A program made the translations under genes and the position numbers. A stretch of DNA of 64,000 nt. Source: Octopus vulgaris (Eukaryota). This document shows, one piece after another, positions 32,467 to 50,420 of the stretch. The stretch lies in NCBI GenBank assembly GCA_951406725.2, contig OX597825.1, positions 33,418,001-33,482,000 of the forward strand, given 5' to 3'. The notes under the pieces are model-generated. The model saw only the letters and a list, made by a program, of their open reading frames with translations, was not told the DNA's origin and ran no database searches. The stretch's first letter is position 1. Each line of letters opens with the position of its first letter.

Positions 32467-33088
32467 TAGGAGTGGCTGTGTGGAAAGTAGCTTGCTTACC
32501 AACCACATGGGTCCATGTTCAGTCCCACTGCATGGCATCTTGGACAAGTGTCTTCTACTATAACCTCGGGATGACCAAAGCTTAGTGTGTAGATTTGGTG
32601 GACGGAAATTGAAAGAAGCCCATCGTGTGACGGCGTGTGTATCGTTGGCGATTTTCTTTCTCCGTCTTCTCTTCCTTGGACCTTTCCTTTTACTATGTTT
32701 CTGACGAAGAGCTCCGCTTGAAATGTTAAATCCTCCTCCTATCTTTCCTTTCCAGAGCGTCCAGTAACACTATACTTGTTCCACATCCTCACGTTGTTGT
32801 GTTTTCTCTTTGTTCATGTTTGGATTAACTATATGTGTGCGTGTGTGTGTGTGTGTGTGTGTATGTGTGTGCATAAGTTTTGTGTGTTTGCGTTTGTCCC
32901 CACCAGCATCACTTGACAAGTGATGCTGGTGTGTTTATGTCCCCATAACTTAGTGGTGCAGCAAAGAGACCAATAGAATAAGTACTAGGCTTACAAAGAA
33001 TAAGTTCTGGGGTTGATTTGCTTGACTAAAGGTGGTACTCCAGCATGACCGCAGTCAAATGACTGAAGTAAATAAAAGAATAAAAGAA
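32467..33088 (+). mobile_element. SINE family A with a nested hammerhead element (~32627-32832)
   Basis: SINE halves flank an insert ending tttggattaactat. Confidence 0.8.
32697..32731 (+). ncRNA. Minimal type I hammerhead motif
   Basis: gttt-CTGACGA-a-gagc tcc gctt-GAAA-tgtt-aaat; near-identical to 50158-50192. Confidence 0.6.
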
Positions 33089-33424
33089 TACACACACACA
33101 CATACACACACAGAAATATATATATATATATATATATATATATATATATATAGAGAGAGAGAGAGAGAGAGAGGGAGAGATAGATAGATAGATAAAAAGA
33201 TATCTTCTTGAGTTATGCCGACTCATAAGGGCTGGTTTCTCAGTGACCATGGTATATAGATTCCCCACCCAGGTATGATGCCGGTCCATCACCGGATTAC
33301 TCCTTTTTTGCCAGCTGAGTGGACTGGAGCAACGTGAAATGAAGTGTTTTGCTCAACACAACATGTTACCTGGTCCAGGAATTGAAACCACAATCTTATA
33401 ATCATGAATTCAATATCCCAACCG

Positions 33425-33820
33425 GATAGATAGATAGATTGATAGATAGGTTAGTGGATGGATGGATGGATGGATGGACGGACGGACGGACGGACAGAGA
33501 AACAGACAGACAGAGAGACAGACAGACAGACAGACAGATAGATATATAGATAGATAGATAGATAGATAGATAGATAGATAGATAGATAGATAGATAGATA
33601 GATAGATAGATAGATAGATAGATAGATAGATAGATAGATAGATAGGCAGATGGACAGACGGATGGACAGAGAGACAGACAGACGGGCGGACGGATGGACG
33701 GATGGACAGAGAAACAGAGAGACAGACAGACAGACAGACATAGAGATAGATAGATAGATAGATAGATAGATAGATAGATAGATAGATAGATAGATAGATA
33801 GATAGATAGATAGATAGACA
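33425..33820. repeat. Compound tetranucleotide microsatellite (GATA/GACA/GGAT/GACG)
   Basis: Seen directly in the sequence. Confidence 0.95.
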
Positions 33821-34544
33821 TCAAATACGTGACTAGACTTTCCTCCATCTGAATTTAACAGCTTCTATCAACTGAAGTAAAGCATATCTATATTATAATT
33901 CTGCTTGTTCATTCATTTTACTTTGTTTAGTGAGAGGGGGAGGGGAGAGAGTGAGAGGTGGAATGAGAGTAAGAGAGAGAAAAGGAGAGCAGGAGGGAAA
34001 GTGGGAGTGTAAAAGTGAGAGAGAAGGAGAGGTGTGAGTGAGAAAGCAGATAGCCACTTCTACTAAACCACACTATCATGTAGTTAGTGGAAATGAGAGG
34101 TGAAGAGAGAGAGAGAGAACTGTTAATGACGTGAAGTGGGGAATTACATTTTTAAAATGTTTGTTGAAGTAAAAGGTAGATATAGAGAGAAAGAGAGACT
34201 GAGAGAGAAGAGAGAGAGAGAGAGGGAGAGAGGGAGAGAGAGGGAGTGGTAGAGAGAGAAAGAATTTTAAAATCATATAATATATATTGTGACTAAACGT
34301 GAAATCATCATCGTCATCATTCGACATCTGTTCTCCATGCTGACATGGGTTGTATGGTTTAACAAGAGATGGTCAGCTGGGGAGCTGCCTGGGCTCCTTT
34401 TATCTGTTTTGGCATGATTTCTATGGTTGGATGCCCTTCATAATGCCATTTAACTAATGAAGATAGCTCTAGATGTCATTTTTAAAAAATTTGCAATGAA
34501 GTTGAAAGTAATCATGTAAATAAAAACATTGTGTATATTCTCTA

Positions 34545-34857
34545 TGTGGAGGTGCAATGGCCCAGTGGTTAGGGCAGCGGACTCACAGCCAGAGGATCGT
34601 GGTTTCAATTCCCAGACTGGATGTTGTGTGTGGTTATTGAGCAAAAACACCTAAAGCGCCACGAGGCTCTGGCAGCGGGTGGTGGCGACCCCTGTTGTAC
34701 TCTTTCACCACAACTTTCTCTCACTCTCTCTTCCTGTTTCTTGAGTAACGTTGCGATGGACTGGTGCCCCGTCCAGCTGGGAGGAACACATACGCCACAG
34801 AAACCAGGAAACCGGGCCCATAGGCCTGGCTAGGCTTGAAAAGGGCGACGTTTACAT
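34545..34857 (+). mobile_element. SINE family C with 11-bp TSD
   Basis: TSD TATATTCTCTA (34534-34544, 34858-34868); tRNA-like head; gcgatggactggtgccccgtccag core. Confidence 0.88.
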
Positions 34858-47224: not shown

Positions 47225-47632
47225 GTGAGAGAGAGAAAGAAGAAAGACAAATATATATATAGAGGAAGACAGAGTAAGAAGAGAGAGACTTGAAAAAATA
47301 GAGTAGAGAATAAAAAGAGAACTCAGCAAAATAGAGAGAGAGAGAGAGAGAACGACGAGATAGAAATAGAGACAGAAAGAGAACAGAGAGGTAAAGAGAG
47401 AAAAAGGGAGGGAGAATAAACAGAGAGAGAAAAAGAGATAGAAAGAGAAGGAGAACTAATAGAGTGAGAAAGATATAGGAAGTGAGGGAGAAGGAACAAA
47501 TAGAGAGATAAAGCAATAGAAAGAGAGGGAGAAGATACAGACACAGAGAGAGACAGAGAGCGAGAGAGAGAAGATAGAGATACAGAGAGAGACAGAGAGC
47601 GAGAGAGAGAAAGAGATAGAGAGAAAGATGAA
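47225..47632 (+). promoter_or_regulatory. Polypurine (GA-rich) tract in the SNX27 promoter/5'UTR
   Basis: ~400-bp almost pure A/G tract ending ~60 bp before the ATG; function is inferred. Confidence 0.45.
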
Positions 47633-47690
47633 CCGGACATAGATTACGGTGTGTTTGTGTGATTTGCCTTGTTTGATCATCTGACCAAAT

Positions 47691-47950
47691 ATGGCGGATA
47701 GTGATGAGGAAGGCAGTACTCCGTCTACTCCGGAGAGAATGATGAGCGACCATAGTGGCCCAAGGGTGGTCACCATCACAAAAACAGAAACAGGCTTTGG
47801 ATTTAATGTCCGGGGCCAGGTCAGCGAAGGTGGGGTCCTCAAATCGATTAATGGAGTATTGTATGCACCTCTCCAACATGTTAGTGCCGTGTTAGAAGGC
47901 GGTGCTGCACACAGAGCAGGCATACGGAAGGGAGACCGAATTTTAGAAGT
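47691..47950 (+). CDS. SNX27: Sorting nexin-27, first coding exon (PDZ domain N-terminal part)
   Basis: [65 protein letters not shown] matches the SNX27 PDZ; MAD N-terminus; GTAAGT donor at 47951 (phase 2). Confidence 0.97.
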
Positions 47951-49979
47951 GTAAGTACACATTATTATATATTATATGTCATTTTATTCACTTCCACTCG
48001 ACAGCTTAAATTGAATTTATTCACGTTCTTAAAATAACCCTGTTTACATCCCTTATTCATTCGTAACTCCCTTTCTTCGTTACTCCCTTCAACATGGGGT
48101 GTGATTGCGTCTGCCCGCCACTGTTCTCTCTAATAGAACTATGGAGCATTCTGTTGAATGTATGGTATTTTTTTATGTATACATTCTTGGCCGCATGGGT
48201 GATTTACTGGATGTATCTATGTTATTTCGTGTATATTGTATGTGTATGAATATTTCGTCTTCGCGAAGGTATGTTTCTTTTTGTGTGTATGTATGAATGA
48301 ATGTTTATGTCTATATTTTATGATTGTTTTTTTATGTGTATGAATGAATAAATCTTATGTATGTGTACATATGAATGGATGTTTCTTGAGTGTATATGTA
48401 AATGTTTCTTGTTTGTGCGTGTATGAATTTTTTTGTATATATATATTTATATTGTGTGTGTAGTGTGGTGTGTATTTGTAGGAATTTTTCCTGTGTATGT
48501 ATGAATGTTTCTTGAGTACGTGTTTGTGAATGTTTGTATGTGTATGGATGAATATATCTTGTGTAACTGTTTTTGTGCGTGTGTATGAATATTTCTTATG
48601 CATTGTATGTATGATCTTGTTTAGCCTCGAATCAGCCTTGATTAAACAAACCTTATGATATGATCAAAGGCATTCCAGTGATGAGATCCCATCTTTTATG
48701 TTAGATACTGTGTATCTTGCTCTACATAATCTATTGTATCCTTTCCCATTTTTGAGATGGTAGTATATAGGGGGGAAGGGGATTTTAGCAGCTATTTCTA
48801 GCAGACCGAGCGATTACATAGGAACACACTCGTTGGCTCGTATGTATGTATATCAAACGTGTAGTGAGTGTCTGTTTTATGTAAGACGATAGCGAGTACC
48901 AGCAAGTGATTTATAAGAATTAGTTTACCTTCGTTTCGTAAACTTTATTTGAATTTAGCATTAAATGTTTGTTAGATTAACGGAGGGATATAACAGAATT
49001 TATTCTGTAATGAGATTACATAATACACATATATTCACTTATGTTTCGTATAGGTTTATCTGATAGCTTATTTTCTCTCAAACGTTTTCGTTTGTCACTC
49101 ACTCAAGTAAATATGATGCGACATCAGATAGTTGTTTCGTTTTAAGAAATAAACGGAAACAGATATTGTCCTTCTAGAACTGTATCTGTCTATCGTGAGT
49201 GTGTCTATATACGTTATGTGTAAGTATGTGTATGTCTATGTGTGTGTTTAAGTCATTGTACATGTCTGTTTATGAGTGTATTTAAGTTACTGTGTATATA
49301 TTTGTGTAAATGTATGTCGTATATGTGCCTTTATGTATATGCGTTTGTGTGTATGTGTTTATATATCATCATCATTATATATATAAACACACACACTTGC
49401 ACACACATATATATATATAGATAGATAGATGTGTGTATACGTGTATGTTCAGTCACTCTATGGAGATAATAAATGACAAGTAAAACGAAAGTGAGTGGAA
49501 GGATGAGATGTTTTACAACATCCAGGAAAATAGCGAGTTGTAGTTTTCCTGTGACTGTTGTGTTAAAAGAACCTTTGGACTGATGATAATTACTCGTAAG
49601 TTTTCCGTTGTTTTGTAAATAGTATAGCAATATTCTATTAAATATTGTTAATTAAATTTCTATAATTACCATTAAACTACTTGGTACTACTGGCTAACTC
49701 GAATTCCATCGATTTACTGTCATCAACCTTAACTATGGAAGGCTGTCAAAAACATAATTGAAAATTTAAACTGTTTCATTTATTTGATGCTTCCACTCTT
49801 TAAATAATTTGATTATTGAATGTCAGTAGTAAATTAAAAAGTAATTAATGATAATACAAATGGAGAAAACACGGGTTAAGATATTGTCAAATACCTCACC
49901 ACCAGTTCAACTAAATAATTACTGTCATATTAACTCCAAACTAATCTTCCTTGAAGAAAATCTTGTGCATAGAGGTGCA

Positions 49980-50420
49980 AGCATGGCTGTGTGGTAAGAA
50001 GTTTGCTTCCCAACCACAGGGTCCCAGGCTCAGTCCCTGTGTGTAACACCTTTGGCAAGTATTATCAACTATAGCCCCAGGCCAACTAAAACCTTATGAT
50101 AAGTAGATTTAGTATACAAAAACTGAAAGAAATCTGTTGTAAGATATATATATATATGTTTCTGATGAAGAGCTCCGCTTGAAACGTTAAACCCTCCTTC
50201 TTTCCTGAGTGTCCAATAATACTATACTTATTCCACGTCCTCGCGTTGTTGTGTTTTCATGTTTGTATTAACTATATATATATATATATATATATATGCA
50301 TGTGTGTCTTTGTGTTTGTCTCCTGCCACTTGACAACCAGTATTGGTTTGGCTACAACCCTTCAAGGCGGAGGCCATCATGGCTGCAGCCCAATGACTGA
50401 AACAAGTAACAGGTGAAAGA
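49980..50420 (+). mobile_element. SINE family A with a nested hammerhead element (~50155-50273)
   Basis: The insert lies inside the SINE's (TA)n and ends tattaactatata. Confidence 0.8.
50158..50192 (+). ncRNA. Minimal type I hammerhead motif
   Basis: GTTT-CTGATGA-a-GAGC tcc GCTT-GAAA-C-GTT-AAAC. Stem I GTTT/AAAC; palindromic ACGT stem III (dimer type). Confidence 0.68.

What the first reader, a model, noticed from the sequence alone, without database searches (positions are those of the whole stretch)
32627..50273. Short hammerhead-bearing elements that insert into the (TA)n inside SINEs (copies at ~32627-32832 and ~50155-50273)
Seen: two homologous non-coding elements with gtttCTGAYGAagagctccgcttGAAAYgttaaa, both ending ttaactatat and both inside the internal microsatellite of a family A SINE. 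An isolated 3' end (tttggattaactatata) sits in (TA)n at ~1355-1372. Known: minimal dimer-type hammerheads occur in Penelope pseudo-LTRs and retrozymes. Inference: a non-autonomous, microsatellite-targeting retrozyme-like family mobilised by PLE enzymes. It could ride on Pol III SINE transcripts, and the 50158 copy is sense-oriented within SNX27 pre-mRNA.
Basis: partly seen in the sequence, partly recalled or inferred. Interest (0 to 1): 0.72.

Follow-up and report, generated by a model that had tools for sequence, protein, structure and literature searches.

The report
Penelope retrotransposon stubs with minimal hammerheads
The two elements are decayed ~120-200-base end pieces of a very common protein-coding Penelope-type jumping gene that lands in any TA repeat, not preferentially in SINEs, so they are ordinary; the one curious point is that copies of a young sister subfamily often begin at the predicted cut site of its hammerhead RNA, which likely records self-cutting in living cells.

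Summary
In detail: two homologous elements with a minimal type I hammerhead motif (32627-32829, 50155-50272), both in SINE internal microsatellites, plus a 17-nt stub at 1355. The interpretation mostly fails. They are pseudo-LTR end pieces of an autonomous Neptune/Nematis-type Penelope-like retrotransposon of an octopus genome. Longer copies run through a CA-rich 3' UTR into a GIY-YIG and RT ORF, and 32627 clusters with ORF-linked ends. Thousands of copies exist. They target (TA)n, not SINEs: 9 of 116 lie in SINE microsatellites against 34 of 178 background tracts. T4 runs argue against Pol III carriage. The hammerhead is conserved between subfamilies but decays in copies at about the rate of the rest; both window copies carry damaging CpG changes. 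The SNX27 intron-1 sense position is true but incidental. Two leads: most short copies share a 5' wall about 210 nt from the end (likely transcription start), and in a young sister subfamily 18 of 106 copies start within 21 nt downstream of the predicted cut, with a sharp upstream edge (likely in-vivo cleavage). The scan noted such solo ends and similar cut-site starts before on other DNA.

The parts
32467..32626 (+). 5' half of host tRNA-like SINE (family A); A/B-box-like motifs read by eye
   Evidence: (families D13, D15, D18)
32627..32829 (+). solo pLTR piece of the Penelope-like element, subfamily A; starts at the family's shared 5' wall (..ATGTGACC..), ends GGATTAAC followed by TATAT
   Evidence: 94.2% to the cluster-4 consensus; the ORF-linked end in L103 is 95.3% to the same consensus
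32697..32731 (+). minimal type I hammerhead motif: stem I GUUU, core CUGACGA + extra A, stem II GAGC/GCUU, GAAA, stem III AUGU, H17=U; predicted cut 32727/32728; two CpG decays (C11.1U, C15.2U)
32886..33089 (+). 3' half of host SINE after the (TG)n run
   Evidence: (D20)
47691..47951 (+). first coding exon of SNX27 (aa 1-87, 100% to P0121); next coding exon lies about 103 kb downstream, so 50155 is sense in this intron
49975..50139 (+). 5' half of a diverged host SINE
50155..50272 (+). shorter pLTR piece starting at TATG just before the hammerhead (a microhomology point also used by 3 of 90 sampled copies), subfamily A-like, in (TA)n
50158..50192 (+). minimal hammerhead motif, core CUGAUGA, H17=U, predicted cut 50188/50189; C11.1U decay
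1355..1371 (+). 17-nt 3'-end stub (TTCTTGTTTGGATTAAC, subfamily B1 spelling) inside the (TA)n run that follows a SINE 3' end

Best explanation
The elements are pseudo-LTR end pieces of an autonomous RT + GIY-YIG Penelope-like retrotransposon, inserted into (TA)n runs and likely copied by that element's own enzyme from a transcript that is inferred to start inside the pLTR. Shown: the same sequence forms the 3' end of ORF-bearing copies and joins the next unit's 5' UTR at ...GGATTAAC(T/A)TATATA|CCGCACGC; copies end at that junction, in (TA)n; most short copies share one 5' wall about 210 nt upstream. Inferred: the endonuclease nicks (TA)n; reverse transcription starts internally at the junction, as shown in vitro for another PLE; priming at the first junction of a pLTR-initiated RNA yields the ~210-nt solo piece, and priming at a later junction yields long, variably truncated copies. 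The hammerhead is kept by selection on master elements only; the two window copies are likely inert. The SINE location is likely chance, because SINEs supply many (TA)n runs.
For: Upstream-segment search: 29 of 30 loci carry the 206-nt end downstream. EN-segment search: 12 of 17 loci carry the end downstream and several hold RT frames; RVT_1 E=1.5e-5 and GIY-YIG E=0.009, both below Pfam cut-offs; full-length homologues carry both domains. 47 exact tandem junctions, 8 of 30 examined running into the ORF, including the window-type end L302. A sister subfamily forms 6.2-kb tandem units, 99.4-99.7% identical, with 883-898-aa open frames. 32627 falls in cluster 4 with ORF-linked ends L101, L103, L112 and 18 UTR-extended copies. 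60 of 90 copies picked by a pattern 3' of the ribozyme start 93-112 nt upstream of the cut and only 2 are long; 8 of 30 junction loci restart at or within about 25 nt of the same wall. SINE-internal 9 of 116 vs 34 of 178. Hammerhead columns decay like the rest in 29 copies picked by upstream sequence (4.6% vs 5.5%, p=0.34; CpG 12.1% vs 12.4%).
Against: Short copies far outnumber long ones in the window's subfamilies (2 of 90 long), which a short non-autonomous master would also give. No intact ORF of exactly subfamily A was seen; the intact ORFs belong to sister subfamilies whose ends are about 71% identical to the window copy. The transcription start is inferred only from DNA ends; in the young subfamily the upstream pLTRs of ORF-bearing copies mostly reach well beyond the wall. 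In 59 B-type copies the hammerhead is slightly less diverged than the rest (3.0% vs 4.2%, p=0.025). Samples come from the first places on one chromosome.
Confidence: 0.86

Rival explanations
1. A short non-autonomous master element (SINE-like or retrozyme-like, about 210 nt) derived from the pLTR is copied in trans by the PLE enzyme and gives most short copies.
For: Discrete 5' wall and dominance of the short form: 60 of 90 within a 20-nt window, 2 of 90 long. Animal retrozymes are proposed to derive from pLTRs (10.64898/2026.07.22.740005, parts 1-2 read).
Against: Each well-sampled cluster that holds short copies also holds ORF-linked or UTR-extended copies. Short B1 copies are often 95-98% identical to a long copy. 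The homologous wall appears in 7 of 106 copies of the autonomous young subfamily. No 150-450-nt tandem arrays: 97 of 110 scorable loci have no second hammerhead-bearing hit within 900 nt, and the other 13 have irregular gaps or inverted partners (6 loci not scored).
Confidence: 0.1
2. The element targets SINE microsatellites and is carried on Pol III SINE transcripts.
For: Both window copies are sense inside SINE microsatellites; copy 2 has no T4 run between the SINE promoter and the hammerhead.
Against: 9 of 116 copies against 34 of 178 background (TA)5+ tracts are SINE-internal. Both orientations relative to the SINE occur. T4 runs precede the hammerhead in copy 1 and the 3' end in copy 2. 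The two window chimeras have different junctions, and no repeated SINE-element junction was seen in the samples.
Confidence: 0.03
3. The 5' wall marks a reverse-transcriptase stop or a microhomology hot spot, not an RNA 5' end; the short copies are plain truncations of full-length cDNA.
For: The wall region (AATATGTG, CGCGTGTGTA) resembles (TA)n/(TG)n targets, and many junctions share bases with the flank.
Against: Ends also occur at non-repeat bases (ATTCAAAATG, CATTCAAAATG) and stop abruptly near -110 to -112 with 4 of 90 beyond. In the young subfamily the wall region has no strong predicted structure (50-nt windows at -200 to -240 give 0 to -3.5 kcal/mol). Another microhomology point (TATG, -34) holds only 3 of 90.
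Confidence: 0.2

Closest known systems
Neptune/Nematis-type EN+ Penelope-like elements (Craig et al. 2021, PMC8557442; passages read)
   Same: Single ORF with DKG motif, RT, CX2-5CxxC linker (CSRSRCNTC) and C-terminal GIY-YIG with CxxC and two His; tandem units forming pLTRs; (TA)n insertion bias; hammerhead near the 3' end.
   Different: A 1.5-3 kb 3' UTR made of degenerate (CA)n; solo ~210-nt ends dominate the window's subfamilies. Neptune versus Nematis was not resolved.
[quoted passage not shown]
   Same: Type I, extra base between 9 and 10.1, G10.1-C11.1, palindromic 15.2-16.2 with no loop 3, 4-bp stem I; mostly single motifs from truncated PLEs.
   Different: Short stem II (4 bp); U17 in the window's subfamily; U4C fixed in the youngest subfamilies; A6U in a related family.
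Poseidon element PAc of Anolis (Frangieh et al. 2024, PMC11167929; parts 1-2 of 4 read)
   Same: Internal initiation of reverse transcription near the pLTR/downstream junction; AT-rich target; hammerhead in the pLTR.
   Different: There the start site is not homologous to the target and no RNA ends were found at the hammerhead cut. Here the junction itself reads TATA(TA), and DNA copies of one subfamily pile up at the predicted cut.
Non-LTR retrozymes of animals (PMC7229834, passages read; 10.64898/2026.07.22.740005, parts 1-2 of 5 read)
   Same: Short non-coding sequence with a type I hammerhead, related to PLE pLTRs.
   Different: Retrozymes are 150-450-nt tandem repeats with a hammerhead in each unit, canonical in PMC7229834, expressed as circles. 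These are dispersed single ends of an autonomous element with a minimal motif.

Membership tests
EN+ Penelope-like element (Neptune/Nematis type) | End is physically linked to an RT + C-terminal GIY-YIG ORF | tested here: met
   12 of 17 EN-bearing loci carry the end downstream; Pfam RVT_1 and GIY-YIG, weak and below cut-off on our frames; homologues carry both
EN+ Penelope-like element (Neptune/Nematis type) | Tandem or partial-tandem units forming pLTRs | tested here: met
   47 junctions, 8 of 30 run into the ORF; 6.2-kb tandem array in a sister subfamily
EN+ Penelope-like element (Neptune/Nematis type) | CX2-5CxxC linker between RT and EN; DKG motif; CCHH in the EN | tested here: met
   Read from translations, against the definitions in PMC8557442
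Neptune versus Nematis clade | Placement in an RT phylogeny with named references | not tested
   No named reference proteins were at hand; homologues carry no clade names
Minimal PLE hammerhead | Conserved core, extra base after A9, stem II, palindromic minimal stem III, stem I | tested here: met
   All pairs possible in undamaged A and B copies; 31 of 35 columns invariant across 7 subfamily consensuses; stem I G-C versus C-G in a related family
Minimal PLE hammerhead | Self-cleavage as a dimer or with protein help | not testable with these tools
   Only indirect: 5'-end pile-up in the young subfamily; the modelled active dimer is 14-19 kcal/mol above the rod fold
Non-LTR retrozyme | Short tandem repeats (150-450 nt) with a hammerhead in each unit | tested here: not met
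   97 of 110 scorable loci have no second motif within 900 nt; the rest are irregular or inverted
Non-LTR retrozyme | Non-autonomous: not part of a coding element | tested here: not met
   Same subfamily end is linked to ORFs
Non-LTR retrozyme | Expressed as abundant circular RNA | not testable with these tools
   Only assembled contigs of runs not on record as RNA were served
SINE-targeting element | Enrichment in SINE microsatellites over other (TA)n tracts | tested here: not met
   9 of 116 versus 34 of 178

The most novel reading that the evidence does not exclude
Genomic copies record the 5' ends of the RNAs that this PLE lineage reverse-transcribes: one wall at the pLTR transcription start, and in the young, probably still active subfamily a second wall at the hammerhead scissile bond. 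About one copy in six would then come from RNA cut in the germ line by a minimal hammerhead with a U4C core and a GUC triplet, while sister subfamilies with GUU show no such step. That would be in-vivo evidence for PLE hammerhead cleavage, which published RNA data did not show.
Probability: 0.5. Interest if true: 0.6.

Novelty: new member of a known kind. Interest (0 to 1): 0.3.

Why it matters
As flagged it does not: these are two of thousands of decayed PLE ends, of a kind described in 2014. What could matter is the footprint in the young sister subfamily. The role of PLE hammerheads is an open question (PMC8557442 calls it unclear; PMC11167929 found no RNA ends at the cut site). An intact, recently active element with a countable pile-up of copy starts at the predicted cut, and sister subfamilies differing at U4 and H17, gives a direct test system.

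Tried and rejected
Rfam scan: only microsatellite-driven miRNA matches; no hammerhead family among the 150 of 218 rows shown. Direct-repeat finder: swamped by microsatellites. L104 first looked like pLTR-ORF-pLTR, but its upstream end belongs to an older subfamily and the ORF starts mid-gene after (TA)n, so it is a nested insertion. The C8 array with three EN hits has no end piece and was not used. The four copies at C1:119.86 Mb are ~720-nt ends repeated with host DNA between them and were left out of the family-C count. Three A/B copies (L175, L208, L209) were mis-mapped as long by BLAST and were re-scored as short. A step in 5' ends at the predicted cut in the window's own subfamilies was looked for and not found: 2 of 90 at 0 to -3. 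Sequencing runs: no RNA holder listed; four guessed-RNA contig sets were laid on the young subfamily's end and give no evidence either way. A motif scan for later SNX27 exons in the next 60 kb found none; they lie further out. Lunse et al. 2017 (PMC5785218) is not held and was not read; its dimer result is cited only through the review PMC6765202 (passages). The host SINE was not assigned to a named family (listing only). Searches of our findings by sequence returned nothing. Supplements of the cited papers were not opened and may list octopus families. PMC13282606 (parts 1-2 of 3 read) reports recently active Penelope-like families in Octopus vulgaris, but its library was not available to compare.
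Full report
Observation. The two elements are at 32627-32829 and 50155-50272 and align over the hammerhead-like motif and the 3' end. The motif is at 32701 and 50162. The 17-nt end TGTTTGGATTAACTATA occurs three times in the window (1359, 32817, 50260) against 0.07 expected. Both full copies interrupt the internal microsatellite of a tRNA-like SINE; the stub at 1355 lies in the (TA)n after a SINE's 3' end. The genome is an octopus: the exon at 47691-47951 is identical to residues 1-87 of an Octopus SNX27 protein, and the next coding exon lies about 103 kb downstream on the same strand, so the 50155 copy is sense in that intron.

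Copy number. The 206-nt copy has 4075 first-look candidates in G000; the 40 scored are 92-95% identical, apart from itself. A 30-nt hammerhead pattern has 2455 exact matches and a 30-nt pattern from the 3' part has 6246; reversed controls give 0.

It is the end of a coding retrotransposon. Some copies extend 5'. A search with that upstream piece gave 30 loci, 29 of which carry the 206-nt end about 300 nt further on, behind a long CA-rich tract. Beyond the tract lies a GIY-YIG-like frame. Of 17 single loci fetched around that frame, 12 carry the end downstream, and several show RT frames with PADKGG, YFLPKIHK, GVAMGT and YIDD, then CSRSRCNTC and LIYCIKCNLCG.LYVGQT. Pfam gives RVT_1 (E=1.5e-5) and GIY-YIG (E=0.009), both under the curated cut-offs; 315 database homologues were found, many annotated with both domains. 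By the definitions in PMC8557442 (passages) a C-terminal EN with this linker, DKG and CCHH means Neptune or Nematis. The RT query has 12,933 candidates; many of the 129 scored have open frames of 880-1010 aa. One locus is a tandem array of 6.2-kb units, 99.4-99.7% identical, each ending in a homologous hammerhead end. The junction of the end with the next unit's 5' UTR has 47 exact matches; 8 of 30 examined run into the ORF, among them a window-type end, L302. Clustering 272 near-full ends into 8 groups puts the 32627 copy with 3 ORF-linked and 18 UTR-extended ends; it is 94.2% identical to the group consensus and ORF-linked L103 is 95.3%. One group (cluster 3) had UTR-extended but no ORF-labelled members. 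No short-only group appeared among the well-sampled clusters.

Target. In 90 copies picked by the 3' pattern, 64 have (TA)3 right after the end and 63 have a dinucleotide run before the start; in the young subfamily 68 of 75 end in (TA)n. SINE context was scored with SINE halves from the window, and both window copies were detected as controls. After removing 4 duplicates, 9 of 116 copies are SINE-internal, against 34 of 178 (TA)5+ tracts in the window, the next 60 kb and locus flanks (Fisher p=0.007). So the element does not prefer SINEs. Pol III stops at T4 runs (established knowledge): copy 1 has two before the hammerhead, copy 2 has one before the 3' end. Tandem arrays of short units were not seen: 97 of 110 scorable loci have no second hammerhead-bearing hit within 900 nt, 13 have one at irregular distance or inverted, 6 could not be scored.

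The hammerhead. The motif fits the minimal PLE form of PMC4209133 (parts 1-2 read): CUGANGA, an extra A, G10.1-C11.1, GAAA, palindromic ACGU, 4-bp stem I. Across 7 subfamily consensuses 31 of 35 motif columns are invariant against 89 of 176 elsewhere (p=2e-5; with an old 4-member group 26 of 35 vs 74 of 176, p=7e-4; subfamilies are related, so these are not independent). Within 29 copies picked by upstream sequence the motif decays like the rest (36 of 783 vs 244 of 4419, p=0.34); in 59 B-type copies it is slightly less diverged (p=0.025). Both window copies have C11.1U and copy 1 also C15.2U; the modelled active dimer core costs +2.3 and -3.3 kcal/mol against -7.0 for an undamaged copy, and a rod fold is far more stable in all cases. 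They are single and 17.5 kb apart, so they are likely inert. The youngest subfamilies carry U4C, a change reported to lower activity in vitro yet allow viroid infectivity (PMC3088659, passages). H17 is U in A and B1, A in some B2 and C in the young subfamily C.

Why most copies are about 210 nt. Of the 90 copies, 8 start 3' of the predicted cut, 2 at 0 to -3, 16 between -4 and -92, 60 between -93 and -112, 2 to -125 and only 2 are long. In 8 of 30 junction loci a second unit restarts at or near the same wall, and one pLTR-ORF insertion (L285) begins there. PLE transcription starts in the pLTR (PMC8557442) and reverse transcription starts internally near the junction (PMC11167929, parts 1-2 read). 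The simplest inference is that priming at the first junction of a pLTR-initiated RNA copies only the stretch up to the RNA's 5' end. This step is inferred, not shown. Against it, upstream pLTRs of ORF-bearing copies in subfamily C mostly reach far beyond the wall.

A lead in the sister subfamily. Subfamily C has about 1200 exact pattern matches. I mapped 96 of the first 100 places of one pattern (4 duplicated copies left out) and 9 places found only by a more 3' pattern; a tenth was already known to be long. The predicted cut is at -99 from the end. Starts: 1 in -23 to -77, 18 in -78 to -99 (three at -99, one at -98), 3 in -100 to -210, 7 in -211 to -240; 61 of the 96 exceed 600 nt. The rate is 0.78 per 100 nt per copy in the peak, against 0.02 and 0.03 on either side (binomial p about 1e-8 and 1e-10; the bins were set after seeing the data). 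Caveats: the three -99 starts begin with ATA, which the target shares, so they lie between -99 and -96. An RT stall at the ribozyme's rod fold predicts the same place. Against a stall, stronger predicted hairpins at -700 to -850 (to -19.5 kcal/mol vs -8.8) hold 2 of 16 starts, and A/B copies with a similar rod show no step. Against cleavage, C has U4C and a U-U mismatch in stem I. Paper searches listed no report of such a DNA footprint, and PMC11167929 found no RNA ends at the cut; most subscription papers are not covered. Earlier notes of this scan describe similar solo ends in this genome (e1-9585077) and cut-site starts elsewhere (e1-8654706, e1-9939230); they are unchecked and were seen only after my counts.

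Verdict. Real, correctly spotted motif; ordinary PLE end pieces; not a SINE-targeting retrozyme. New member of a known kind, interest 0.3, with a testable side lead on in-vivo hammerhead cleavage.

Noticed in passing
G000:C10:97.80-97.83 Mb (L237-L239); also C16:15.98-15.99 Mb: Tandem arrays of a very young sister subfamily, 6.2-kb units 99.4-99.7% identical, with 883-898-aa open frames; the lineage is probably still active.
   Followed up: yes
L237:7790-10000 and L061-L066, L100-L116: The element's 3' UTR is 1.5-3 kb of degenerate (CA)n that repeat maskers would take for host microsatellite; the young subfamily has a GC-rich structured island inside it.
   Followed up: partly
L248, L254, L255, L284, L055, L017 flanks: A related abundant-looking family has core CUGUNGA (A6U), stem II GAGC-GUAG-GCUC, GUA triplet and compensatory stem I CUUU/AAAG.
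   Followed up: no
L279, L292, L295, L296, L300, L301, L304, L306: Partial tandems: end, junction, 240-490 nt of 5' UTR or ORF, then a second short end starting at the shared 5' wall; suggests template jumps and puts two hammerheads close together.
   Followed up: partly
window 3652-7129: A different decayed Penelope-like element with RT-like and GIY-YIG-like frames between 146-nt inverted arms; no tblastn match to the family studied here at E<0.01.
   Followed up: no
window 54127-54811: 286-nt inverted arms, 95% complementary, around a 113-nt spacer flanked by (TA)n; includes part of a SINE 5' half.
   Followed up: no
window 47691-47951 and G000:C12:33568874: SNX27 first coding intron is about 103 kb long.
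   Followed up: yes
L104:3100-4080: A truncated ORF-bearing copy inserted into the (TA)n behind an older subfamily's end, which mimics a pLTR-ORF-pLTR layout.
   Followed up: yes
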